A DNA stretch of 37,529 bases from the IMG/VR virus record IMGVR_UViG_2718218168_000003. One strand, 5' to 3'. Shown here in pieces: positions 901 through 36,023 of this stretch; the first letter of the stretch is position 1; the number at the start of each line of letters is the position of its first letter. The DNA is from a virus (taxonomy: Duplodnaviria; Heunggongvirae; Uroviricota; Caudoviricetes). The notes under the pieces were generated by a model. That model searched no databases, was not told the origin of the DNA, and was given only the letters and a program-made list of their open reading frames with translations. Position numbers and translations under genes: made by a program.

Positions 901-1314
901 GATCGTATGTGCCTTTATGATTGGTCTGTAGATAGTGTAGAGCAGAAAACAAAAGGTGGAGTCAGAACAGGATGAAAGTCGGAGGATAAAAAGTCAGTTC
1001 AAGTATGGAGGATTCAGTGGTTACCACCAGGAGCTTGCAATGGGGACAGCGAATACTAACGGCTGCCACCGATAAATTTCAAAAAAGAGCATATGCCTAA
1101 TATTCAACCAAACAGTGGCATCTTAAATATACTATTCCAAATATATTAAAGCCCCCATGGAGTTACCCTGAAGGGCCTCAATGTCCGTAATTCCTACTTA
1201 TGTAGGAAATGTTGTACAGAACATTTATTATAATCCTATTCAATTATAATAATCATGCCATTATTATATTTAAACACTAGAGAGTGTCGTTGGTATTTAA
1301 TGGGGGAAGGTGAG

Positions 1315-1632
1315 ATGAAAAAGATAGCTGCTATATCATTAATTAGTATTTTTATTATGTCTGGTTGTGCTGTGCATAATGATGAGACAAGTATCGGTAA
1401 ATTTGGTCTTGCATATAAAAGTAATATTCAGCGTAAACTCGATAACCAATACTACACCGAAGCCGAAGCTTCTTTAGCCAGGGGCAGAATATCTGGTGCA
1501 GAAAATATAGTAAAAAATGATGCAGCCCATTTCTGTGTTACTCAGGGCAAAAAAATGCAGATAGTTGACCTGAAGACAGAAGGTGCAGGATTACATGGCG
1601 TCGCTCGTCTGACATTCAAATGTGGAGAGTGA
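1315..1632 (+). CDS. yegR: Small putative lipoprotein YegR (about 105 aa)
   Basis: In-frame ATG at 1315 preceded by GGAAGGTGAG Shine-Dalgarno; N-terminal hydrophobic signal ending in lipobox-like MSGC; matches recalled E. coli YegR; the upstream ATG at 1255 lacks an RBS. Confidence 0.7.
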   Translation: MKKIAAISLISIFIMSGCAVHNDETSIGKFGLAYKSNIQRKLDNQYYTEAEASLARGRISGAENIVKNDAAHFCVTQGKKMQIVDLKTEGAGLHGVARLTFKCGE

Positions 1633-1790: not shown

Positions 1791-1817
1791 AAAAAATAAG
1801 CCCGTGTAAGGGAGATT
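1791..1817. repeat. attL core, 27 bp AAAAAATAAGCCCGTGTAAGGGAGATT (P2 att core)
   Basis: Exact direct repeat of 35997..36023; lies immediately outside int. Confidence 0.85.
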
Positions 1818-4456: not shown

Positions 4457-4681
4457 ATGCATACAGTTTCTGAAAATCAGTGCGGTAAATACGCATTACT
4501 GCTGCAACAGGCCAGAACCGAAGCACAGGCCGACGCTGCGACGCGCTTTTCTTCTCATCTTGACGCCATGATTCGCCATATCACAAAGGCGGAGTTATCC
4601 CGCGTGGAGATAGTCGAGCTGCTCAGTCAGGAGTCGGAAAAATTTCACAATATCGGATTGTCTCGCGGGGAGGTGCTTTGA
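4457..4681 (+). CDS. Hypothetical early protein (P2 orf80-like)
   Basis: ORF in the B-to-A early operon; translationally coupled to the next ORF. Confidence 0.6.
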
Positions 4682-7987: not shown

Positions 7988-10471
7988 TTAACGAGGGTTT
8001 CGCGTATAGGTTTCAACTATGTCTGATGCACGTAATTTACATGTGATCAATTGTTCTCTTATAAATATCTCATCGTGTCGTTTATCACTTGTACAAATGG
8101 CCGTGATAAAACTGAGGATAGATGCTTTAAAACGTTCAAGATCATTTATGGTCATTATTCGAGACCCTTCGTTTAGTGTTGCGGCATATTCAGGCATGTT
8201 AGAGTGATGTATCATTATAGGTGTGGCGGTAGCAGTTTGATCATACATGTTTCTGAACCATGCACCCGACCCATTTAACTGATTGCAGTCATGCTTACTT
8301 ATTCTTTCTGCGGTTGCTCCATTTTTGCATTCAATTACTAGATAATTGTTTTCTCCCATTGCCCATAAATTGTCAGGTCCTTTACCTGTATCATTTTCTG
8401 GCCGTTGGCTACGAAAACCGACCAAATATGCAACTTTTTCGATAGCATCTTCGAAGGGATTCGATGTGCCCTCGGAGAAAATAAGGTTTTCTATTATTGA
8501 ATTAGTATGCACAACGACTTGATTCGCCGATTCAAAATTACTTCTGAGATAGGAGCTACATTCCCTGGCCTGTTCAAGTGCCGCACCATTAAGTCTATTA
8601 TATGTTACGCCGATTAGTGGTTTTAATACCCGATAGTTATCGTTTGATGCAGACTGAAGCAATATCTGAGCTTCAGATTTGTCATATAAGTTTACATATT
8701 CCGCAGCATGTTCTTTTAGATAACCCTTATAAACTTTGTCAGCTGTACTACTATCATTTTTTAGAGTTAAAGCGGCTTGTTGAAACATATTTCGTGATGC
8801 TAAGTCATATGCCAATCTTTTGTTTATAGTATGCTGGTCAATCTGCTTATTTTCCAATGTTAAGCCAGTCAATATACCTTTGCTTTTTGAGACCCAGTCA
8901 GAATTGCGTAACAGACAATAATCAAGAGCACCTTTGATTGAATCAATAGTTGTATCCGGCAGTATCGATACCAATTGCTGTGAAAGTTGAATTTGTGCTT
9001 TCGTTGCTGGAGAAAACCTTTCTAAGGAGGAGCCAAGGAAAACAGCGCCATTTAATGCTTTGCCAAGTAAGATCACTCCGCAGAAGTCGTCGCTTGATCT
9101 CACTCCTCGCCCCATTCCTTGTTCAATTTTCTGGATAATTTCATCTTTGGTTTTTTCGCTTCCAAGCAATAAGCTTTGTGAGACTTTATCTATTAGTCTA
9201 CGAACGTCAGGAAGTCCATCTATTACTAATAGACGACATGCGGTATTTGGTAAATCAATACCATCATATCTATTAACTAGGACTACTAAGCCAACATGTT
9301 GTGTCCTTAATTCTTGTACACCTTGATAAATTGTATTTTTATCTAATATTCTGTCTGCAACATCTTGCCAAAATCTAGTTCTGTAATCGGATGGTACAAT
9401 TACAACAACATTATGTTTGGAGGATATCTCCTTGCACATAGCTTTGATATCTACATCAGAAAGACTAGGGTTTATAACCTGAGGCATTAGTATCATTCTA
9501 TCACCAATATCACCAATTGTTTTTGGTGTTATCGGATTAGAGAGTGATTCATCCGTTATTCCGAAGTGGCTCGCTAGAATGGATTCATCGACAAGAGTAG
9601 CTGTCATGAATATTTTTCTTCTTGCGTTTGATAGGCTTGGGATCATTTGGATTGGTATGCAATGAGGTGATATCTCTATTTTGGAAGCACTTACAACGCA
9701 TTTCGATAATATTAGATTGTCTTTTATCAATGGCCATTTGAAACTCAAGTCATCATGGTCTTTATTTTCTAACAAGATTGTCATTATATCATTTATGCTT
9801 TCTTGCCATTTCCAAAATGGAACTCTCACATAAGCATTTCTATCGCCGGATTTTATCTCTAGTGTTTTTGCACCAGCTTGTGTCATTAGTGAATTTTCAA
9901 AAATTCTGAATAATTTATCATAGGCAGGGTTATTTTTTTGAATGCTAATGGAGAATTGTTCTTCAATTGAAGAAAGGCAAGCGTGAGCATCGTCAATTAT
10001 TATAGAACCTATTGGTATTTTTTGTCCATCATCTCCAACGCCAAATGCAGAACGTCCATTAACCACTTTGAATATATTTGTAACTAAAATTTCTTTACCT
10101 GCAATAAATTTGGGGGACCTCTCATCTTGAGTTACAGGTATACCAAGTTGATTAGCCTCCAAAACCACTTGCTCAACTAGATAGTTGTCAGGAACAACAT
10201 ATACAGCGGGACCTTCTCCTTCATTTATACAGCTTTTAAGAATGATTAATCCAACTGAAGTTTTACCGCTTCCGGTATTCATTTTTATTACATTGGTTGG
10301 GCTTCTCCTTGCTTCATACCATTTTTCCCAGACCTCTGATTGCACATCTCGAGGGTATTGAAATTTGGTGTCTTTGCTCGGTAGAGCTGTAAATATATCT
10401 CGCGGTGGAATCGCTGTGTCGCTATTTACACTGGGCGAAAGCTTGGTTAAATCAAGGAAAAAACCAGACAT
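7988..10471 (-). CDS. Cargo gene at the P2 tin/old hotspot: 827-aa SF2 helicase (Walker A MNTGSGKT, DExH-like IIIDDAHA, TAT motif, QGMGRGVRS motif VI) fused to a C-terminal PD-(D/E)xK nuclease motif (GPDNLW...LVIECK); candidate single-gene anti-phage defence protein
   Basis: Motifs read directly from the translation; AT-rich relative to the flanking phage genes; opposite strand; AGAGGA RBS before the ATG at 10471; sits exactly where P2 carries tin/old. Confidence 0.8.
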   Translation of the reverse strand: MSGFFLDLTKLSPSVNSDTAIPPRDIFTALPSKDTKFQYPRDVQSEVWEKWYEARRSPTNVIKMNTGSGKTSVGLIILKSCINEGEGPAVYVVPDNYLVEQVVLEANQLGIPVTQDERSPKFIAGKEILVTNIFKVVNGRSAFGVGDDGQKIPIGSIIIDDAHACLSSIEEQFSISIQKNNPAYDKLFRIFENSLMTQAGAKTLEIKSGDRNAYVRVPFWKWQESINDIMTILLENKDHDDLSFKWPLIKDNLILSKCVVSASKIEISPHCIPIQMIPSLSNARRKIFMTATLVDESILASHFGITDESLSNPITPKTIGDIGDRMILMPQVINPSLSDVDIKAMCKEISSKHNVVVIVPSDYRTRFWQDVADRILDKNTIYQGVQELRTQHVGLVVLVNRYDGIDLPNTACRLLVIDGLPDVRRLIDKVSQSLLLGSEKTKDEIIQKIEQGMGRGVRSSDDFCGVILLGKALNGAVFLGSSLERFSPATKAQIQLSQQLVSILPDTTIDSIKGALDYCLLRNSDWVSKSKGILTGLTLENKQIDQHTINKRLAYDLASRNMFQQAALTLKNDSSTADKVYKGYLKEHAAEYVNLYDKSEAQILLQSASNDNYRVLKPLIGVTYNRLNGAALEQARECSSYLRSNFESANQVVVHTNSIIENLIFSEGTSNPFEDAIEKVAYLVGFRSQRPENDTGKGPDNLWAMGENNYLVIECKNGATAERISKHDCNQLNGSGAWFRNMYDQTATATPIMIHHSNMPEYAATLNEGSRIMTINDLERFKASILSFITAICTSDKRHDEIFIREQLITCKLRASDIVETYTRNPR

Positions 10472-10654: not shown

Positions 10655-10673
10655 GGCGAGGCGGGGAAAGCAC
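10655..10673. other. cos site: 19-nt P2 cohesive-end sequence GGCGAGGCGGGGAAAGCAC
   Basis: Exact match to the recalled P2 cohesive end; positioned just beyond the 3-prime end of Q, as in P2. Confidence 0.8.
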
Positions 10674-26705: not shown

Positions 26706-27896
26706 ATGAGTGACTATCATCACGGCGTGCAGGTGCTGGAGATTAACGACGGCACCCGCGTCATTTCCACCGTATCCACTGCCATTGTCGGCATGGTCTG
26801 CACGGCCAGCGATGCAGATGCGGAAACCTTCCCCCTCAATAAACCGGTGCTGATTACCAATGTGCAGAGCGCAATTGCAAAGGCTGGTAAAAAAGGCACG
26901 CTGGCGGCATCGTTGCAGGCCATCGCCGACCAGTCAAAACCGGTCACCGTTGTCGTACGTGTGGAAGACGGCACCGGCGACGACGAGGAAACGAAACTCG
27001 CACAGACCGTTTCCAATATCATCGGCACCACTGACGAAAACGGTCAGTACACCGGACTGAAAGCCCTGCTGGCGGCGGAGTCGGTAACCGGTGTTAAACC
27101 GCGTATTCTTGGTGTGCCGGGGCTGGATACCAAAGAGGTGGCTGTTGCACTGGCATCAGTCTGTCAGAAGCTGCGCGCTTTCGGATATATCAGCGCATGG
27201 GGCTGTAAAACCATTTCCGAGGTGAAAGCCTACCGCCAGAATTTCAGCCAGCGTGAGCTGATGGTCATCTGGCCGGATTTCCTCGCATGGGATACAGTCA
27301 CCAGTACCACCGCCACCGCGTATGCCACCGCCCGTGCGCTGGGTCTGCGTGCTAAAATCGACCAGGAGCAGGGCTGGCATAAAACGCTGTCCAACGTCGG
27401 GGTAAACGGTGTTACCGGCATCAGCGCATCTGTATTCTGGGATTTGCAGGAGTCCGGCACCGATGCTGACCTGCTTAACGAGTCAGGCGTCACTACGCTG
27501 ATTCGCCGCGACGGTTTCCGATTCTGGGGTAACCGTACCTGCTCTGATGACCCGCTGTTCCTCTTTGAAAACTACACCCGCACCGCGCAGGTGCTGGCCG
27601 ACACGATGGCTGAGGCGCACATGTGGGCGGTGGACAAGCCCATCACCGCAACGCTGATTCGCGACATCGTTGATGGCATCAATGCCAAATTCCGAGAGCT
27701 GAAAACAAACGGCTATATCGTGGATGCGACCTGCTGGTTCAGTGAAGAATCCAACGATGCGGAAACCCTCAAGGCCGGAAAACTGTATATCGACTACGAC
27801 TATACCCCAGTGCCTCCTCTTGAAAACCTGACCCTGCGCCAGCGTATTACCGATAAATACCTGGCAAATCTGGTCACCTCGGTTAACAGCAATTAA
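26706..27896 (+). CDS. FI: Tail sheath protein gpFI (396 aa)
   Basis: Full ORF; recalled as P2 FI. Confidence 0.95.
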   Translation: MSDYHHGVQVLEINDGTRVISTVSTAIVGMVCTASDADAETFPLNKPVLITNVQSAIAKAGKKGTLAASLQAIADQSKPVTVVVRVEDGTGDDEETKLAQTVSNIIGTTDENGQYTGLKALLAAESVTGVKPRILGVPGLDTKEVAVALASVCQKLRAFGYISAWGCKTISEVKAYRQNFSQRELMVIWPDFLAWDTVTSTTATAYATARALGLRAKIDQEQGWHKTLSNVGVNGVTGISASVFWDLQESGTDADLLNESGVTTLIRRDGFRFWGNRTCSDDPLFLFENYTRTAQVLADTMAEAHMWAVDKPITATLIRDIVDGINAKFRELKTNGYIVDATCWFSEESNDAETLKAGKLYIDYDYTPVPPLENLTLRQRITDKYLANLVTSVNSN

Positions 27897-27908
27897 GGAG
27901 CCTGACCG

Positions 27909-28427
27909 ATGGCAATGCCGCGCAAACTCAAGTTAATGAACGTCTTTCTGAACGGCTACAGCTATCAGGGCGTTGCAAAGTCCGTCACGCTGCCAAAACT
28001 GACCCGTAAGCTCGAAAACTATCGCGGTGCGGGGATGAACGGCAGCGCACCGGTAGACCTCGGCCTTGATGACGATGCGCTGTCAATGGAGTGGTCGCTC
28101 GGGGGCTTCCCGGATTCGGTTATCTGGGAGCTTTACGCCGCAACCGGTGTGGATGCCGTGCCGATTCGTTTTGCAGGCTCTTACCAGCGCGACGATACCG
28201 GCGAAACGGTGGCCGTCGAAGTGGTCATGCGTGGACGTCAGAAAGAAATCGACACCGGCGAGGGCAAACAGGGAGAAGACACCGAGTCGAAAATCTCCGT
28301 GGTCTGCACCTATTTCCGGCTGACGATGGACGGTAAGGAGCTGGTCGAAATCGATACCATCAACATGATTGAGAAGGTGAACGGCGTCGACCGGCTGGAG
28401 CAACACCGCCGCAATATCGGCCTGTGA
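27909..28427 (+). CDS. FII: Tail tube protein gpFII (172 aa)
   Basis: Full ORF; recalled as P2 FII. Confidence 0.95.
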   Translation: MAMPRKLKLMNVFLNGYSYQGVAKSVTLPKLTRKLENYRGAGMNGSAPVDLGLDDDALSMEWSLGGFPDSVIWELYAATGVDAVPIRFAGSYQRDDTGETVAVEVVMRGRQKEIDTGEGKQGEDTESKISVVCTYFRLTMDGKELVEIDTINMIEKVNGVDRLEQHRRNIGL

Positions 28428-28483
28428 TTTTCATCCGGTCAGCCAGGCTGACCGGTTAACCCCGATTCAGAAGTGAGAAAACC

Positions 28484-28729
28484 ATGAACAAAGAAAATGT
28501 CATTACCCTGGAAAATCCGGTCAAGCGTGGTGAGCAGGTCATCGAACAGGTCACGCTGATGAAACCCAGTGCCGGGACACTGCGCGGTGTCAGTCTGGCT
28601 GCGGTTGCAAACTCCGAAGTCGATGCACTGATTAAGGTACTGCCGCGCATGACGGCACCGATGCTGACCGAGCAGGAGGTCGCCGCGCTGGAACTGCTGC
28701 GTATTACCGTGAAGGAGATCGGTGAGTAA
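28484..28729 (+). pseudogene. E: Tail assembly chaperone gene E interrupted by an IS: P2-like E sequence up to 28697, then 10 codons of IS-derived sequence before a stop
   Basis: Translation matches recalled P2 gpE up to ...AALEL and then diverges exactly at the IS left inverted repeat; the rest of E resumes at 31279. Confidence 0.8.
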
Positions 28730-28782
28730 CATCGATGGAGATCGGTTCGTGTCACTTTCACAGAACCGTTTTTAAATTACCT

Positions 28783-29532
28783 TCACTGATCTCCTTCGGT
28801 CAACGGAGATTGTATTTTCCGCATTGATTCTCCTTTAAGTTCGATCTTGATACTGCCATGAACCAGTCGATCTAGGATGGCATCCGCATGTGTGGAGTCT
28901 CCGATCATTTTGTACCAGTTTTCCACCGGCAACTGGCTCACTACGATGATTGAGCCTCGTTGGTACATCAGATCCACTATTTCCAGCAGGTCGCTACGCT
29001 GTTCTGATGAGAGAGGTTCCAGCCCCCAGTCATCCAGAAGCAGCAGATCGCTATTATTCAGCCTGGTCAAAAGTTTGCTGTATCTTCCATCAGCATGCCC
29101 CTGATAGCACTGTTCCATCAGCGCTTTAAGGCGATAATAGTAGACCTTGTATCCCTGTCGGCAGGCATTATGACCAAGTGCACATGCCAGGAACGTTTTA
29201 CCGCTGCCGGTGGCCCCGGTCAGTAAAATATTTTGTTTCAGGGTTAACCAGTTTCCCTGACTGAGTGAACGGATGAGGGCCCTGTCCAGCCCTCTATTGT
29301 TACGATAATCCAGCTTTGATAACTCAGCATTAAGTCTGAACCGTGCATGTTTGATCAGACGCTCTGCCTTCCTGTTTTCACGGCAGGTTAGTTCTTCTGC
29401 TGTCAGTAATGACAGGCGTTCTTCGAAGCCCAGCTCCTGGTATGTGCCCGGCTGAGCAAGTTGCTTTTTAAGCGCATCACGGAAGCCGGTGAGTTTAAGT
29501 GCGGTCAGTTGTTCGTAAAGATGATTCATCAT
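28783..29532 (-). CDS. istB: IS21-family transposition helper ATPase IstB (249 aa)
   Basis: Walker A GATGSGKT and Walker B LLLLDD; typical IstB length. Confidence 0.9.
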   Translation of the reverse strand: MMNHLYEQLTALKLTGFRDALKKQLAQPGTYQELGFEERLSLLTAEELTCRENRKAERLIKHARFRLNAELSKLDYRNNRGLDRALIRSLSQGNWLTLKQNILLTGATGSGKTFLACALGHNACRQGYKVYYYRLKALMEQCYQGHADGRYSKLLTRLNNSDLLLLDDWGLEPLSSEQRSDLLEIVDLMYQRGSIIVVSQLPVENWYKMIGDSTHADAILDRLVHGSIKIELKGESMRKIQSPLTEGDQ

Positions 29533-29543
29533 TGGATCCCGTA

Positions 29544-31085
29544 TCAGTGGTAATACTCACTGCCGCGTACGTTTTCGTGTTCCATCGTGGATAACAGATC
29601 TGGTTTTGGATCCTGAACAGGTTGTTTATCCAGACCTTTTTCCAGGATCGATTTAATACCTGACAGACGCCATACCTTTGTTTTCAGAGCTCTTGCACAT
29701 GCTGCATTAAGTCTGGCTTTACTGTATTTTTTATGAAGGTTCAGGAGTCCAAGGCAGAAGCGATAGCTTTGTTCCGGATGTGGACGAGAGTTCAGTATAT
29801 GAAGCACATAACTATGAGTTTCACTGCCTATGTGCCCCGCCCATTCCAGAAGACGCTCTGGCGTCCAGGTGGCATGCTGTCGATGAGCTTCAGGCATGTG
29901 CTCGTTGCGGGTACTGTAGCCATAAGTACGCTTGCGCGGGTGCACAGCAACCTCCTGCCCCTGATTGAAGAGTCTTACCAGTTCTCCGGAGATCCATGCT
30001 TCCAGTTGCTGGCCTAACAGCGAACATGGAACCGAGTAGTAATGTTTGTCGATTTCCACGTGGTAATCGGCATGAACTCTGACTTTCTTCACCAGGGTGT
30101 AACTGTAACTGGCTTCAGGAAGAGGCTTCAGTGCGGGTTTATCAAGCTGGATGAAGAGTTCTGCACGTGAATAACCCAACTTCTGCATTATTTTGTTATT
30201 CAGTCTTTCCAGCAACTCCCGAATGCGCTGATTAAGCGATGCAAGGCTGTAGAAGATCTCATGCCTGATTCGGGCCATGATCCAGCGTTCAACAACCTGA
30301 ACGCCAACTTCAGCTTTGGCTTTATCTTTCGGTTTACGTGGCCGCGCAGGCAAAACTGCGACATTATAATGCTCAAGCATCTGCTGGTAGGTAGGGTTAA
30401 CGTCAGGATCATACTTACATGCCCTGGATGTGGCGCTTTTCAGATTGTCCGGAACAACAAGTTCAGGAACGCCACCCAACCACTGGAAGCAGCGAACATG
30501 ACTCATCACCCAGTCTTCAAGCTGCTGAGACCAGGTGGCCTCTGCCCATGTGTAACTTGATGCCCCGAGAACAGCTACGATGACCTGAGCAGTTCTTATT
30601 TCTCCGGTCTCAGGGTCGGTAACGCCAACGGTAGGTCCACAGTAATCAACGAAAAGTTTTTCGCCAGCTTTATGTACCTGACGCATTGATGGTGAAGTGG
30701 TTTTGAGCCATTCACGGTACATCCGGCAGTAATGGTTATAGCTGTAAAAACCGCCTGGATTACGCTCACAGTATTCTTCCCAGAGTAGCTGCAGCGTCAC
30801 GCATTTATTACGCAGTTCCCGGTGTACTGTAGCCCAGTCAGGCAGAGAGTGCTTCTTCATCTTAACCTGGGTCTGAAGGAACGCATGTTTTAGTTTTGTA
30901 TCATCCCATCCTGTAGGTAAGGGCCACTGCTTTATGCCAAGTTGAGCCGCCCGATTAGCATATCTGGATACAACGGAAGGGGAGATTGCAAGACTACGAC
31001 CAATTTGTCGATGGCTGAGTCCAACACCGTATTTAAGCCTAAGAATTTCTTTAAGTTTTCTCATAGAAATTGGAACTGTTGGCAT
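29544..31085 (-). CDS. istA: IS21-family transposase IstA (513 aa)
   Basis: N-terminal HTH followed by a DDE integrase-like core; immediately upstream of istB on the same strand. Confidence 0.88.
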   Translation of the reverse strand: MPTVPISMRKLKEILRLKYGVGLSHRQIGRSLAISPSVVSRYANRAAQLGIKQWPLPTGWDDTKLKHAFLQTQVKMKKHSLPDWATVHRELRNKCVTLQLLWEEYCERNPGGFYSYNHYCRMYREWLKTTSPSMRQVHKAGEKLFVDYCGPTVGVTDPETGEIRTAQVIVAVLGASSYTWAEATWSQQLEDWVMSHVRCFQWLGGVPELVVPDNLKSATSRACKYDPDVNPTYQQMLEHYNVAVLPARPRKPKDKAKAEVGVQVVERWIMARIRHEIFYSLASLNQRIRELLERLNNKIMQKLGYSRAELFIQLDKPALKPLPEASYSYTLVKKVRVHADYHVEIDKHYYSVPCSLLGQQLEAWISGELVRLFNQGQEVAVHPRKRTYGYSTRNEHMPEAHRQHATWTPERLLEWAGHIGSETHSYVLHILNSRPHPEQSYRFCLGLLNLHKKYSKARLNAACARALKTKVWRLSGIKSILEKGLDKQPVQDPKPDLLSTMEHENVRGSEYYH

Positions 31086-31278
31086 AGGTATCCTTTACCG
31101 GAATGGCAAAAGATACAGATCAACACACCTGTGAAGTTCCAATAACATTGATGGAGATCACTGAATAACAAAATGAGTCAAAAGTGATCTCCATCGATGT
31201 TATTCAGCGATCTGTTCAAATGTTATTACCCGATCTCGATGGAAGTTATTGAGTGATCTCCTTTCATGAAAATACGCA

Positions 31279-31495
31279 ACTGCCTGACCTTGTGGCGCTG
31301 GCCGGTAAGGTGGTCGGTTTTTTGTCGCCGAACTCGGTGCAGTGACGTTTCCGAAAAATCTGTCGGTCGATGACCTGATGGCAGATGTGGCAGTGATATT
31401 TCACTGGCCGCCATCAGAACTGTATCCCATGAGCCTGACCGAACTCATCACATGGCGCGAAAAGGCGCTCCGGCGAAGCGGAAACACGAATGAGT
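31279..31495 (+). pseudogene. E: Displaced 3-prime part of E (ends 31345) and the E-prime frameshift extension; the T6G slippery site GGTTTTTTG is at 31316..31324
   Basis: Translation from 31280 gives LPDLVALAGKVVGFLSPNSVQ, matching the recalled P2 gpE C-terminus; the -1 frame runs on to overlap the T start. Confidence 0.7.
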
Positions 31496-33937
31496 AACAA
31501 TGTAAAATTACAGGTATTGCTCAGGGCTGTTGACCAGGCATCCCGCCCGTTTAAATCCATCCGCACAGCGAGTAAGTCGCTGTCGGGGGATATCCGGGAA
31601 ACACAAAAATCACTGCGCGAGCTGAACGGTCAGGCATCCCGTATTGAGGGATTTCGCAAGACCAGTGCGCAGCTCGCCGTGACTGGTCATGCACTTGAAA
31701 AGGCACGGCAGGAAGCCGAAGCCCTTGCCACACAGTTTAAAAACACCGAACGTCCGACCCGTGCTCAGGCGAAAGTGCTGGAATCCGCAAAGCGAGCGGC
31801 GGAGGACTTACAGGCGAAATATAACCGCCTGACGGATTCCGTTAAACGCCAGCAGCGGGAACTGGCCGCTGTGGGAATTAATACCCGCAATCTTGCACAT
31901 GATGAGCAGGGACTGAAAAACCGTATCAGTGAAACCACCGCACAGCTTAACCGTCAGCGCGACGCGCTGGCGCGTGTCAGTGCGCAACAGGCAAAACTTA
32001 ACGCAGTCAAACAGCGTTATCAGGCCGGAAAGGAACTGGCCGGAAATATGGCCTCAGTGGGCGCTGCCGGTGTGGGGATTGCGGCGGCGGGAACGATGGC
32101 CGGAGTTAAGTTGCTGATGCCCGGTTATGAGTTTGCGCAGAAAAACTCAGAATTGCAGGCCGTGCTCGGAGTGGCAAAAGACTCCGCCGAAATGACCGCA
32201 CTACGCAAACAGGCGCGCCAGCTCGGCGACAATACCGCCGCCTCGGCGGATGATGCGGCCGGTGCACAGATAATCATCGCGAAAGCGGGTGGGGATGTTG
32301 ATGCCATTCAGGCGGCAACGCCGGTCACGCTGAATATGGCGCTGGCGAACCGCCGCACGATGGAAGAAAACGCCGCCCTGCTGATGGGGATGAAATCCGC
32401 CTTTCAGCTTTCAAACGATAAGGTCGCTCATATCGGGGATGTTCTCTCCATGACGATGAACAAAACCGCCGCCGATTTTGACGGCATGAGCGATGCGCTG
32501 ACCTATGCCGCACCTGTGGCAAAAAATGCCGGTGTCAGCATTGAAGAAACCGCCGCAATGGTCGGGGCGCTGCATGATGCAAAAATCACAGGCTCAATGG
32601 CGGGGACGGGAAGCCGTGCCGTGTTAAGCCGCCTGCAGGCACCGACGGGAAAAGCATGGGATGCACTCAAAGAGCTTGGAGTGAAAACCTCAGACAGCAA
32701 GGGAAACACCCGGCCAATATTTACCATTCTGAAAGAAATGCAGGCCAGTTTTGAGAAAAACCGGCTCGGTACTGCCCAGCAGGCTGAATACATGAAAACT
32801 ATTTTCGGGGAGGAGGCCAGCTCAGCCGCCGCCGTGCTGATGATTGCCGCCTCAACCGGAAAGCTGGACAAACTGACCGCTGCGTTTAAAGCCTCAGACG
32901 GGAAGACCGCCGAGCTGGTAAATATCATGCAGGACAACCTAGGCGGTGACTTTAAAGAGTTTCAGTCCGCTTATGAGGCAGTGGGGACTGACCTGTTTGA
33001 CCAGCAGGAAAGCGCACTGCGTAAGCTCACGCAGACGGCCACAAAGTATGTGTTAAAACTCGACGGCTGGATCCAGAAAAACAAATCACTGGCGTCAACC
33101 ATCGGCATCATTGCCGGTGGCGCGCTGGCGCTTACTGGCATCATCGGTGCCATTGGCCTCGTAGCCTGGCCGGTTATCACCGGCATCAATGCCATCATCG
33201 CGGCAGCAGGCGCAATGGGGGCAGTCTTCACGACGGTTGGCAGTGCTGTTATGACCGCCATCGGGGCTATTAGCTGGCCGATTGTGGCCGTGGTGGCCGC
33301 AATTGTCGCCGGGGCGTTGCTTATCCGTAAATACTGGGAGCCTGTCAGCGCATTCTTTGGCGGTGTGGTTGAAGGGCTGAAAGTGGCATTTGCGCCGGTG
33401 GGGGAACTGTTCACGCCACTTAAGCCGGTGTTTGACTGGCTGGGTGAAAAGTTACAGGCCGCGTGGCAGTGGTTTAAAAACCTGATTGCCCCGGTCAAAG
33501 CCACTCAGGATACCCTGAACCGTTGCCGTGACACGGGGGTCATGTTCGGGCAGGCACTGGCTGACGCGCTGATGCTGCCGCTTAATGCGTTCAACAAACT
33601 GCGCAGTGGTATTGACTGGGTACTGGAAAAACTCGGTGTTATCAACAAAGAGTCAGACACACTTGACCAGACCGCCGCCAGAACTCAAGCTGCCACGTAT
33701 GGCAGCGGTGGTTATATTCCGGCGACCAGCTCTTATGCAGGTTATCAGGCTTATCAGCCGGTCACGGCACCGGCTGGCCGCTCTTATGTGGACCAGAGTA
33801 AAAACGAATATCACATCAGCCTGACGGGTGGTACTGCGCCGGGGACACAGCTCGACCGCCAGTTACAGGATGCGCTCGAAAAATACGAGCGGGATAAACG
33901 TGCGCGCGCCCGTGCCAGCATGATGCATGACGGTTAA
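31490..33937 (+). CDS. T: Tail tape measure protein gpT (815 aa)
   Basis: Full ORF; recalled as P2 gpT; internal hydrophobic Gly/Ala-rich segment typical of tape measure proteins. Confidence 0.95.
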   Translation: MSNNVKLQVLLRAVDQASRPFKSIRTASKSLSGDIRETQKSLRELNGQASRIEGFRKTSAQLAVTGHALEKARQEAEALATQFKNTERPTRAQAKVLESAKRAAEDLQAKYNRLTDSVKRQQRELAAVGINTRNLAHDEQGLKNRISETTAQLNRQRDALARVSAQQAKLNAVKQRYQAGKELAGNMASVGAAGVGIAAAGTMAGVKLLMPGYEFAQKNSELQAVLGVAKDSAEMTALRKQARQLGDNTAASADDAAGAQIIIAKAGGDVDAIQAATPVTLNMALANRRTMEENAALLMGMKSAFQLSNDKVAHIGDVLSMTMNKTAADFDGMSDALTYAAPVAKNAGVSIEETAAMVGALHDAKITGSMAGTGSRAVLSRLQAPTGKAWDALKELGVKTSDSKGNTRPIFTILKEMQASFEKNRLGTAQQAEYMKTIFGEEASSAAAVLMIAASTGKLDKLTAAFKASDGKTAELVNIMQDNLGGDFKEFQSAYEAVGTDLFDQQESALRKLTQTATKYVLKLDGWIQKNKSLASTIGIIAGGALALTGIIGAIGLVAWPVITGINAIIAAAGAMGAVFTTVGSAVMTAIGAISWPIVAVVAAIVAGALLIRKYWEPVSAFFGGVVEGLKVAFAPVGELFTPLKPVFDWLGEKLQAAWQWFKNLIAPVKATQDTLNRCRDTGVMFGQALADALMLPLNAFNKLRSGIDWVLEKLGVINKESDTLDQTAARTQAATYGSGGYIPATSSYAGYQAYQPVTAPAGRSYVDQSKNEYHISLTGGTAPGTQLDRQLQDALEKYERDKRARARASMMHDG

Positions 33938-33951
33938 GGAGGTGACGAAAA

Positions 33952-34431
33952 ATGATGCTCGCGTTAGGTATGTTTGTTTTTATGCGCCAGACGCTGCCAC
34001 ACCAGACCATGCAGCGTGAATCAGATTATCGCTGGCCGTCAAATTCCCGTATCGGCAAACGGGATGCCTTTCAGTTTCTCGGTGTGGGTGAGGAAAACAT
34101 CACGCTGGCCGGTGTGCTTTATCCCGAACTGACCGGCGGCAAGCTGACGATGACCACGCTCAGGCTGATGGCAGAGGAAGGTCGGGCGTGGCCGTTGCTG
34201 GATGGCACCGGCATGATTTACGGCATGTATGTCATCAGTAAGGTGAGTGAAACAGGGAGTATTTTCTTTGCAGACGGCACACCCCGAAAAATTGATTTTA
34301 CGCTGTCGCTCACCCGCGTTGATGAATCACTGGCCGCGCTTTATGGCGATATCGGTAAACAGGCGGAATCGCTCATCGGTAAGGCTGGCAGTATGGCGAC
34401 TAAATTCACGGGTATGACGGGGGCGGGATAA
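33952..34431 (+). CDS. U: Tail protein gpU (159 aa)
   Basis: Full ORF; recalled as P2 gpU. Confidence 0.9.
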   Translation: MMLALGMFVFMRQTLPHQTMQRESDYRWPSNSRIGKRDAFQFLGVGEENITLAGVLYPELTGGKLTMTTLRLMAEEGRAWPLLDGTGMIYGMYVISKVSETGSIFFADGTPRKIDFTLSLTRVDESLAALYGDIGKQAESLIGKAGSMATKFTGMTGAG

Positions 34432-35594
34432 TGCTGGATGCGCTGACATTTGATGCAGGCAGTACGCTGACGCCGGATTACATGCTGATGCTCGACAGCA
34501 GGGATATTACCAGCAATATCAGTGACCGTCTGATGAGCATGACCCTGACGGATAACCGGGGCTTTGAGGCTGACCAGCTTGATATTGAACTGAACGATGC
34601 CGACGGGCAGGTCGGGCTGCCGGTTCGTGGCGCTGTCCTGACGGTGTATATCGGCTGGAAAGGTTTTGCCCTGGTATGCAAAGGGAAATTCACCGTTGAT
34701 GAGGTTGAACACCGGGGCGCGCCGGATGTGGTCACCATCCGCGCCCGGAGTGCAGATTTCCGCGGGACGCTCAATTCCCGCCGGGAAGGCTCATGGCATG
34801 ACACCACGCTCGGTGCGATTGTTGAGGCGATAGCCTCCCGTAACAGGCTGGAAGCCAGTGTCGCTCCGTCACTGGCCGGAATTAAAATCCCGCACATCGA
34901 CCAGTCGCAGGAGTCTGATGCGAAATTCCTGACCCGTCTTGCAGAACGCAACGGCGGTGAGGTCTCGGTAAAAATGGGAAAACTGTTGTTTCTCAAAGCG
35001 GGGCAGGGGGTGACGGCCAGCGGTAAAAAAATCCCGCAGGTCACCATAACCCGCAGCGACGGCGACCGCCATCATTTTGCGATTGCTGACCGTGGAGCCT
35101 ATACCGGTGTAACGGCAAAGTGGTTACACACCAAAGACCCGAAGCCGCAAAAGCAGAAGGTAAAACTGAAACGCAAAAAGAAAGAGAAACACCTGCGCGC
35201 ACTGGAGCACCCGAAAGCGAAACCGGTCACGCAGAAGAAAGCGCCAAAAGTACCGGAAGCACGCGAAGGTGAATACATGGCCGGTGAGGCTGACAACGTT
35301 TTTGCCCTGACCACGGTATATGCCACGAAAGCGCAGGCCATGCGCGCCGCTCAGGCGAAGTGGGATAAACTGCAACGGGGTGTAGCGGAGTTCTCCATCA
35401 GCCTGGCTACCGGTCGGGCAGATATTTACACGGAAACACCGGTCAAAGTGTCAGGCTTTAAGCGTGTCATAGACGAGCAGGACTGGACAATCACTAAGGT
35501 GACACATTTTCTGAATAATAGCGGCTTCACGACGTCCTTAGAGCTTGAGGTAAGGCTTTCTGATGTGGAGTACGAAACCGAAGATGATGAGTGA
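34431..35594 (+). CDS. D: Tail protein gpD (387 aa)
   Basis: Full ORF; recalled as P2 gpD. Confidence 0.93.
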   Translation: MLDALTFDAGSTLTPDYMLMLDSRDITSNISDRLMSMTLTDNRGFEADQLDIELNDADGQVGLPVRGAVLTVYIGWKGFALVCKGKFTVDEVEHRGAPDVVTIRARSADFRGTLNSRREGSWHDTTLGAIVEAIASRNRLEASVAPSLAGIKIPHIDQSQESDAKFLTRLAERNGGEVSVKMGKLLFLKAGQGVTASGKKIPQVTITRSDGDRHHFAIADRGAYTGVTAKWLHTKDPKPQKQKVKLKRKKKEKHLRALEHPKAKPVTQKKAPKVPEAREGEYMAGEADNVFALTTVYATKAQAMRAAQAKWDKLQRGVAEFSISLATGRADIYTETPVKVSGFKRVIDEQDWTITKVTHFLNNSGFTTSLELEVRLSDVEYETEDDE

Positions 35595-35996: not shown

Positions 35997-36023
35997 AAAA
36001 AATAAGCCCGTGTAAGGGAGATT
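35997..36023. repeat. attR core, 27 bp AAAAAATAAGCCCGTGTAAGGGAGATT
   Basis: Exact direct repeat of 1791..1817. Confidence 0.85.

What the first reader, a model, noticed from the sequence alone, without database searches (positions are those of the whole stretch)
28698..31278. IS21-family element inserted inside tail chaperone gene E, uncoupling the E/E-prime frameshift
The gpE reading frame matches P2 up to ...AALEL and then runs into the IS left inverted repeat; the remainder of E (LPDLVALAGKVVGFLSPNSVQ) and the T6G slippery site at 31316..31324 resume 2.58 kb downstream, after a 5-bp ACTGC target duplication. In P2 both gpE and the frameshift product gpE+E-prime are needed for tail assembly, so this prophage probably cannot make infectious particles by itself, yet it still carries two intact cargo genes. 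That fits domestication of the prophage as a defence carrier. The insertion may also be polar on T, U and D, or supply outward promoter activity.
Basis: partly seen in the sequence, partly recalled or inferred. Interest (0 to 1): 0.55.

Follow-up and report, generated by a model that had tools for sequence, protein, structure and literature searches.

The report
ISEc12 splits P2 prophage gene E
A common E. coli jumping gene (ISEc12) has recently landed inside an essential tail-assembly gene of an otherwise complete P2-type prophage, probably leaving it unable to build tails; this is an ordinary, often-repeated kind of prophage damage, not a new system.

Summary
Window 28698..31278 is a 2,581-bp IS21-family element with istA and istB on the minus strand, TGCGT…ACGCA ends and a 5-bp ACTGC target duplication. 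It sits in codon 71/72 of the P2 tail-chaperone gene E. Removing the IS and one duplicate restores a 91-aa gpE, the TTTTTTG slip site and a 142-aa E+E′, and the repaired site aligns gap-free to P2.

The element is ISEc12, with no base differences from copies found in many E. coli genomes. The host element is a complete P2 prophage between yegS and yegQ. Every other P2 gene that the P2 reference does not mark non-essential is full length, both att cores are perfect and cos is intact, so E is the only lesion.

The exact junction was found in none of 5,426 complete E. coli genomes, nor in the genome and metagenome scans. Loss of E and E+E′, both annotated essential in P2, makes a tail-defective prophage the likely outcome.

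The "domesticated defence carrier" reading is not supported. The insertion looks recent and private. ISEc12 hits P2-like tail genes in both orientations (39 and 72 genomes), without clustering, and hits head genes about as often (33 genomes).

By-product: ISEc12 shows a modest preference for duplications of the form N-C-W-G-N.

The parts
1791..1817 (+). attL: 27-bp core identical to the P2 attP core; left boundary of the prophage
   Evidence: Exact match to P2 24356-24382
26706..28427 (+). FI (tail sheath, 26706-27896) and FII (tail tube, 27909-28427), upstream genes of the FETUD late operon; both intact
   Evidence: tblastn to P2: full length at 98.7% and 100%
28484..28729 (+). Truncated E ORF: 71 gpE codons (28484-28696) plus 10 IS-encoded codons and a stop (81 aa)
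   Evidence: ORF list; Pfam Phage_TAC_7; tblastn to P2 E residues 1-71 at 98.6%
28693..28697 (.). [quoted passage not shown]
28698..31278 (-). ISEc12 (IS21 family), 2,581 bp, ends TGCGT...ACGCA, with several internal GGAGATC-type terminal repeats at both ends
   Evidence: 100% identity to annotated ISEc12 copies; exact full-length copies in 13 loci; repeats
28783..29532 (-). istB, AAA+ helper ATPase (249-aa ORF)
   Evidence: Pfam IstB_IS21 E=2e-67
29544..31085 (-). istA, DDE transposase (513 aa)
   Evidence: Pfam rve and Mu-transpos_C_2; RefSeq name 'IS21-like element ISEc12 family transposase' on identical copies
31279..31283 (.). Right copy of the target-site duplication ACTGC
31280..31345 (+). 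Orphaned 3' end of E (codons 71-91 and stop). No usable upstream start, because the frame is closed by TGA at 31250 inside the IS
   Evidence: tblastn to P2 E residues 70-91; frame analysis
31318..31324 (+). TTTTTTG -1 slippery heptamer, identical in its 26-nt context to P2
   Evidence: P2 record annotates the frameshift site at 19685
31324..31497 (+). E' reading frame (-1 frame extension), now detached from the E start
   Evidence: Pfam Phage_P2_GpE E=1.6e-22; reconstructed 142-aa E+E'
31490..35594 (+). T (31490-33937), U (33952-34431) and D (34431-35594): intact downstream genes of the operon, exposed to possible polarity
   Evidence: tblastn to P2: full length at 98.4-99.0%; Pfam
35997..36023 (+). 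attR: second perfect 27-bp att core; right boundary of the prophage

Best explanation
A single, recent, simple transposition of ISEc12 went into the tail-assembly-chaperone gene E of a P2 prophage integrated between yegS and yegQ of an E. coli strain. ISEc12 is an IS21-family insertion sequence made of the istA transposase and the istB helper ATPase.

Shown here:
- The IS made a 5-bp duplication (ACTGC) that fits the element's modest N-C-W-G-N target preference.
- It cut E after codon 71.
- The prophage can now encode only an 81-aa truncated E with a 10-residue IS-derived tail.
- The last 20 codons of E, the TTTTTTG slip site and the E' frame are stranded 2.6 kb downstream without a start codon, so neither gpE nor gpE+E' can be made.

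Inferred:
- Both proteins are essential for P2 tail assembly, so the prophage should produce heads but no functional tails unless E and E+E' are supplied in trans.
- Transcription from the late FETUD-operon (F) promoter upstream of FI must now cross 2.6 kb of untranslated IS sequence. Expression of T, U and D is therefore probably also reduced through Rho-dependent polarity.
- Everything else in the prophage is intact, including integration, immunity, replication, head, lysis, baseplate and cargo genes. This is an early stage of ordinary IS-mediated prophage decay.
For: - Boundaries, duplication and restoration of E and E+E'.
- Gap-free 98.2% alignment of the repaired site to P2-type phages.
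- IS protein domains.
- 100% identity to ISEc12, which is present in 1,760 of 5,426 complete E. coli genomes. Exact 2,581-bp copies elsewhere.
- All P2 genes other than the five the P2 reference marks non-essential are full length (most at 92-100% identity, the tail-fibre genes H and G more diverged), with only E split.
- Perfect attL and attR cores and cos.
- P2 record annotates E and E+E' as essential and linked by a -1 frameshift.
- No ORF bridges the right junction.
- The junction is absent from every collection searched.
- ISEc12 insertions in P2-like tail and head blocks are frequent. Tail-block insertions occur in both orientations and show no positional clustering.
- Target preference explains ACTGC.
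Against: - No expression or phage-production data exist for this strain.
- Essentiality of E and E+E' is taken from the P2 record's annotation and my recollection of Christie et al. 2002. I could not retrieve that paper.
- The rest of the source genome is unknown, so a second P2-like prophage could complement the defect. Many E. coli genomes carry more than one (several 'places' per record).
- Polarity is inferred. The terminator scan showed only weak hairpins.
Confidence: 0.85

Rival explanations
1. Domestication, the first reader's view: the tail knock-out is a selected step that grounds the prophage, so the host keeps its anti-phage cargo genes without the risk of lysis.
For: - Two intact cargo ORFs sit in the two known P2 variable loci.
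- A 2026 survey of P2 and P4 elements found defective P2 elements with conserved defence genes and raised domestication as an open question (PMC13586616).
Against: - The IS has zero divergence, and the junction is found in no other genome or contig. There is therefore no evidence of retention over time.
- A tail defect does not stop excision, replication or lysis. int, cox, A, B, Y and K are all intact, so it removes no cost to the host.
- Tail-block insertions are spread evenly and occur in both orientations.
- The head block is hit about as often: 33 genomes against 39 for the matching orientation. That fits neutral accumulation.
Confidence: 0.06
2. The prophage is still productive. E and E+E' may be supplied in trans by another P2-like prophage in the same genome, the 71-residue E fragment may keep enough function, or rare precise excision of the IS may restore E.
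For: - Many E. coli genomes hold several P2-like tail regions (multiple places per record).
- 71 of 91 gpE residues are retained.
- The 5-bp direct repeats could in principle allow precise excision.
Against: - E+E' cannot be made from this locus, and it is annotated as essential in its own right.
- Even if complemented, the packaged genome would still carry the defect.
- Precise excision of IS elements is rare (general knowledge).
Confidence: 0.1
3. Targeted insertion: the E/E'/T-5' region is a specific hot spot for ISEc12, or tail genes are preferentially hit.
For: - Five of 21 mapped tail-block insertions fall within 322 bp around E/E'/T-5'.
- The same ACTGC duplication occurs at the ST131 tssM insertion (PMC10711316).
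Against: - The scan statistic gives P=0.39 for that cluster.
- Both orientations occur.
- A head-gene block of equal length is hit at a similar rate.
- The ACTGC coincidence is explained by a general, weak N-C-W-G-N preference seen at 17 of 90 unrelated sites.
Confidence: 0.03
4. Assembly artefact: a repeat-induced mis-join placed an IS copy inside E.
For: ISEc12 is multi-copy, and assemblies often break at it. Many metagenome contigs end inside it.
Against: Both junctions are present, with a perfect 5-bp duplication. Exact restoration of E on removal is the signature of real transposition, not of a mis-join.
Confidence: 0.02

Closest known systems
ISEc12 (IS21 family insertion sequence of E. 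coli)
   Same: Identical sequence: 100% over the IS, with exact 2,581-bp copies in 13 other loci. It has the same istA/istB pair, the same TGCGT...ACGCA ends and a 5-bp duplication.
   Different: Only the insertion site differs. This junction was not found in any searched collection.
ISEc12 insertion in tssM of E. coli ST131 clade C/H30 (PMC10711316)
   Same: Same element, same 5-bp duplication ACTGC, and the same consequence: a multi-protein contractile machine is disabled by loss of one essential gene.
   Different: That insertion is fixed in a large clade, in about 99.8% of clade C genomes. The one here appears private to one strain. The target gene is also different.
Other ISEc12-disrupted P2-like prophages in E. 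coli
   Same: Same IS in the same FETUD operon. Examples: the Esc31 lineage (IS inside E', 7 bp past the E stop), strain 447 (T+35 bp), 21964, 23AR0885 and APEC O1 (FI). I mapped 21 independent sites. 39 genomes (window orientation) and 72 genomes (flipped) carry an ISEc12 in or within about 4.4 kb of the block.
   Different: Each has its own position and duplication. The window is the only mapped case that cuts inside E itself, upstream of the slip site.
Phage P2 genes E and E+E' (tail assembly chaperone with a programmed -1 frameshift; functional analogue of lambda G/GT)
   Same: The repaired gene is 98.6% identical to P2 E in its first 71 residues. The slippery context is identical over 26 nt, and the gene sits in the same position between FII and T.
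   Different: Here the gene is interrupted, so the frameshift product cannot be made.

Membership tests
IS21 family insertion sequence | Two consecutive genes: istA (DDE transposase with an rve core) followed by istB (AAA+ helper ATPase, IstB_IS21) | tested here: met
   Pfam rve plus Mu-transpos_C_2 on the 513-aa ORF; IstB_IS21 at E=2e-67 on the 249-aa ORF; same strand, 11 bp apart
IS21 family insertion sequence | Imperfect terminal inverted repeats ending 5'-TG...CA-3', with several repeated transposase-binding motifs near each end | tested here: met
   Ends are TGCGTATT... and ...AATACGCA. A 16-nt terminal inverted repeat is 81% complementary, and GGAGATC-type repeats occur in 2-3 copies at the left end and 4-5 at the right end
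IS21 family insertion sequence | Short target-site duplication (4-8 bp) flanking the element, with the target restored on removal | tested here: met
   ACTGC on both sides. Removal restores E and a gap-free match to P2. Twenty other ISEc12 insertions show 5-7 bp duplications
ISEc12 (named element) | Near-identity over the full length to the reference element | tested here: met
   100% identity to copies that RefSeq annotates as 'IS21-like element ISEc12 family'. The ISfinder reference itself was not available to compare
P2-like (Peduovirus) prophage | P2 gene content and order, P2 att core at both ends, and a cos site | tested here: met
   37 P2 proteins matched in P2 order: 35 over their full length (75-100% identity, most at 92-100%), H only in part, and E split in two. 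The five P2 genes with no match (orf30, fun, tin, old, orf91) are all marked or known as non-essential. Two perfect 27-bp att cores and an exact 19-bp cos
Tail assembly chaperone with programmed -1 frameshift (P2 E/E+E', lambda G/GT type) | Chaperone ORF between the tube and tape-measure genes, a slippery heptamer near its 3' end, and an overlapping -1 frame extension without its own start | tested here: met
In the window as it stands, the arrangement is broken by the IS
Tail assembly chaperone with programmed -1 frameshift (P2 E/E+E', lambda G/GT type) | Both products are required for tail assembly | not testable with these tools
   Taken from the annotation in NC_001895. The primary paper was not retrievable
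Domesticated or grounded prophage kept for its cargo | The inactivating lesion is shared by a clade, phage genes are decaying, and cargo genes are conserved | tested here: not met
   The junction is unique, all other phage genes are intact, and the IS is undiverged

The most novel reading that the evidence does not exclude
IS-mediated knock-outs of P2-like structural genes may not be purely neutral decay. ISEc12-disrupted P2-like tail or head regions occur in at least 2-3% of complete E. coli genomes. In that reading, such hits would be a recurrent first step that grounds defence-carrying P2 prophages, and this window would catch that step at time zero. Separately, ISEc12's N-C-W-G-N target preference may be undescribed.
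Probability: 0.07. Interest if true: 0.4.

Novelty: already known. Interest (0 to 1): 0.12.

Why it matters
The value is mostly practical.
- A prophage that gene-content tools would score as intact is probably tail-defective because of one IS. That matters for predicting lysogen behaviour, helper ability for P4-type satellites, and phage release.
- It is a clean, dated-to-zero example of how P2-like prophages begin to decay.
- The survey shows that such ISEc12 hits are frequent in E. coli and show no positional clustering in the tail block. This argues against reading any single hit as adaptive.
- It raises no new mechanism and does not open a long-standing question.

Tried and rejected
1. Same-orientation hot spot at E/E'/T-5'. 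My first junction search found three other lineages with ISEc12 35-115 bp into T, all in the window's orientation. This came from my query design. A flipped-IS control found 72 genomes against 39.
2. Positional clustering within FI..U. I mapped 21 independent sites, and the scan statistic gave P=0.39.
3. Tail-specific enrichment. A head-gene block of equal length gave 33 genomes against 39 in the matching orientation. I did not run the flipped head query.
4. Finding the same insertion elsewhere. None was found by junction megablast, exact fusion-protein look-up, or exact 34-mer scans of genome and metagenome contigs. The source genome is not in the 5,426-genome set; the best match for T..yegQ is 99.0%.
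5. A fusion ORF carrying the slip site out of the IS. None exists, because TGA at 31250 closes the frame.
6. An outward sigma-70 promoter towards T. No consensus match was found.
7. Reading Christie et al. 2002 for essentiality. The paper is not held, so I relied on the P2 RefSeq annotation.
8. PADLOC match for the 303-aa cargo protein. None was found.
Full report
**1. What is in the sequence**

Reading 28300..31700 and listing ORFs shows a + strand ORF starting at 28484. It encodes MNKENV...EQEVAALEL followed by LRITVKEIGE and a stop at 28727-28729. Two minus-strand ORFs follow, of 249 aa (29532..28783) and 513 aa (31085..29544). After them come the sequence ...CTGCCTGACCTTGTGGCGCTGGCCGGTAAGGTGGTCGGTTTTTTGTCGCCG... 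and the 815-aa tape-measure gene.

Pfam types the 513-aa protein as a DDE transposase (rve plus the Mu-transposase C-terminal domain). It types the 249-aa protein as IstB_IS21 (E=2e-67), the truncated ORF as a Phage_TAC_7 tail chaperone, and the frame 31342-31497 as Phage_P2_GpE.

The element runs from TGCGTATT at 28698 to AATACGCA at 31278, which is 2,581 bp. ACTGC lies directly outside both ends, at 28693-28697 and 31279-31283. My own first attempt misplaced the right end by 5 bp, and I corrected it. The ends carry several GGAGATC-type repeats, as IS21-family ends do.

Deleting the IS and one ACTGC restores a 91-aa gpE. A -1 slip on TTTTTTG (31318-31324) then gives a 142-aa E+E' ending ...RRSGNTNE. 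The repaired 995-bp site aligns as one ungapped piece, at 98.2% identity, to P2 and 80 other Peduovirus records. The only quibble is that the slippery heptamer starts at 31318, not 31316.

**2. Identity of the element**

The IS is 100% identical to copies that RefSeq names 'IS21-like element ISEc12'. Matches occur in 1,760 of 5,426 complete E. coli genomes, with a median of three copies per genome. Thirteen of the loci I fetched contain an exact 2,581-bp copy. The copy in the window has therefore not diverged at all.

**3. The host element**

The window is a whole P2 prophage.
- All 42 P2 proteins in my query set were compared by tblastn. 37 matched, in P2 order, and 35 of those matched over their full length. 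Most are 92-100% identical; G is at 75%, and H matches only in part because its C-terminal receptor-binding region has been replaced.
- E is the only gene that is broken, split into residues 1-71 and 70-91.
- The five with no match are orf30, fun, tin, old and orf91. The P2 record marks the first four non-essential. orf91 carries no such note there, and I take it as dispensable from general knowledge.
- C, cox, P, W, Y, FII and ogr are 100% identical to P2.
- Both ends carry the exact 27-bp P2 att core (1791-1817 and 35997-36023), and the 19-bp cos is at 10655.
- The flanks are yegS and yegQ/trhP of E. coli.
- The two P2 variable loci hold other cargo. One is an 827-aa DinG-like helicase that matches the PADLOC candidate PDC-S28 (E=0). 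The other is a 303-aa protein with a weak Mrr_cat match and no PADLOC hit.

E is the only lesion in the prophage.

**4. Consequence**

The P2 reference record annotates E as 'essential tail protein'. It annotates E+E' as 'shares amino terminus with gpE; -1 frameshift; essential tail protein', with the shift at 19685. That position is window 31325, in a 26-nt context identical to P2.

In the window, the E-3' frame is closed by TGA at 31250 inside the IS. The only in-frame starts after that stop are GTG or TTG codons without a Shine-Dalgarno sequence. Neither product can be made from this locus.

I infer that tails cannot be assembled without help in trans. I also infer polarity on T-U-D, because the late transcript must cross 2.6 kb of untranslated sequence. 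The consensus scan found only weak hairpins and no outward sigma-70 promoter. From what is known of IS21, its outward -35 lies at the istB-distal end. That end here faces antisense into E-5'/FII, so promoter supply to T-U-D is unlikely. That last point rests on my own knowledge, not on a test.

**5. Is the insertion shared, targeted or selected?**

*Shared?* The left-junction query found no genome with the same junction among the 5,426. The unique 81-aa fusion protein is not on record. A 34-nt junction string has no exact match in the genome or metagenome contig collections.

*Apparent hot spot.* One search did show three other lineages with ISEc12 just inside T, in the same orientation, each with its own duplication: CTCAG, GCGAG and ACACA. 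That looked like a hot spot, so I tested it.
- A query of FI..U with the IS as in the window gave 39 genomes at 80% coverage or more.
- The same query with the IS flipped gave 72. There is no orientation bias, and my first impression came from how I built the query.
- I mapped 21 independent insertion sites in the 5,140-bp block: 8 in FI, 1 in FII, 2 in E/E', 9 in T and 1 in U (with junctions verified).
- A scan statistic shows no clustering, with P=0.39 for the 322-bp window.
- One of these sites, in the Esc31 lineage, lies 7 bp past the E stop and inside E'. It is the closest analogue of the present case.

*Tail-specific?* A head-gene block of equal length (P-O-N-M-L), carrying the IS in the window's orientation, gave 33 genomes. 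That is about the same as the tail block's 39.

ISEc12 therefore lands in P2-like prophages often, with no orientation bias and no positional clustering in the tail block, and it hits head genes about as often. This is what neutral accumulation in dispensable DNA predicts.

**6. A by-product: target preference**

The window's ACTGC is the same 5-mer as at the well-known ISEc12 insertion in tssM of ST131 clade C (PMC10711316).
- Among the 18 five-bp duplications in the tail block, 6 have a central C-W-G, against a 5.3% background. I noticed this pattern after looking at the data.
- As an independent test I fetched ISEc12 left ends from metagenome contigs. Of 90 distinct sites, 17 have the central C-W-G, against a 5.1% background (P about 3e-6). 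Seven shifted registers give only 4-9.
- Position 4 of the duplication is G in 50% of sites, and position 5 is C or G in 74%.

The preference is real but weak. It explains the ACTGC coincidence without any link between tssM and E.

**7. Interpretation**

The 'domesticated defence carrier' reading is not supported.
- The lesion is private to this strain and undiverged, and nothing else in the prophage has decayed.
- A tail defect does not spare the host from excision, replication or lysis.
- The population pattern looks neutral.

A recent survey raised domestication of defective P2 elements as an open question (PMC13586616). This locus cannot answer it.

**8. Verdict**

This is a correctly described but ordinary event: a new insertion site of a known IS in a known phage gene. 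Interest is low.

Noticed in passing
ISEc12 junctions: window 28693-28697; L001-L022; 90 metagenome loci (L024 onward): ISEc12 shows a modest target preference. The 5-bp duplication has a central C-W-G at 17 of 90 independent sites against a 5.1% background (P about 3e-6). Position 4 is G in 50% of sites and position 5 is C or G in 74%. Two tail-block duplications, CCTGG and CCAGG, are Dcm (CCWGG) sites. I do not know whether this preference has been described.
   Followed up: yes
E. coli complete genomes: ISEc12-disrupted P2-like prophages are common. 39 genomes (window orientation) and 72 (flipped) have the IS in or within about 4.4 kb of the FI-U block, and 33 genomes (one orientation only) have it in or near the P-L head block, out of 5,426. 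Many of these are clonal, and I did not count independent events for the whole prophage.
   Followed up: partly
window 7988-10471 (-): An 827-aa DinG-like helicase (ResIII, DEAD and Helicase_C_2 domains) occupies the P2 old/tin locus. It matches the PADLOC candidate system PDC-S28 end to end (E=0). Its defence function is a candidate only.
   Followed up: partly
window 25445-26356 (+): A 303-aa ORF occupies the P2 Z/fun locus between G and FI. Only its N-terminus has a weak Mrr_cat nuclease match (E=4e-5), and it has no PADLOC hit. The remaining roughly 225 residues are uncharacterised.
   Followed up: partly
window 22524-24734 (+): The tail-fibre gene H is 736 aa against 669 aa in P2. It matches P2 only in residues 1-251 (95%) and weakly at the C-terminus. 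G is only 75% identical. The receptor-binding module has been swapped relative to P2.
   Followed up: no
L001-L022, and window 31342-31497: RefSeq annotates the E' frame as a free-standing 39-51 aa 'GpE family phage tail protein' CDS in every P2-like prophage I looked at, not as the -1 frameshift product E+E'. This is a systematic annotation artefact.
   Followed up: no
window 1255-1632 (+): A 125-aa ORF lies between yegS and attL, with no Pfam or PADLOC match. By position it is probably the host gene yegR.
   Followed up: no
L021 (E. coli Esc31, NZ_OZ369368.1) around 2056-2067 and 4643-4648: This ISEc12 copy, in the flipped orientation, lies 7 bp after the E stop and inside E'. Its 6-bp duplication differs at one base (GTTTAC against GTTTCC). 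It knocks out E+E' while leaving E intact, making it a natural E'-only mutant.
   Followed up: partly
window 1791-1817 and 35997-36023: Both att cores are identical to the full 27-bp P2 attP core, so the bacterial site at yegQ/yegS shares the whole core with the phage.
   Followed up: no
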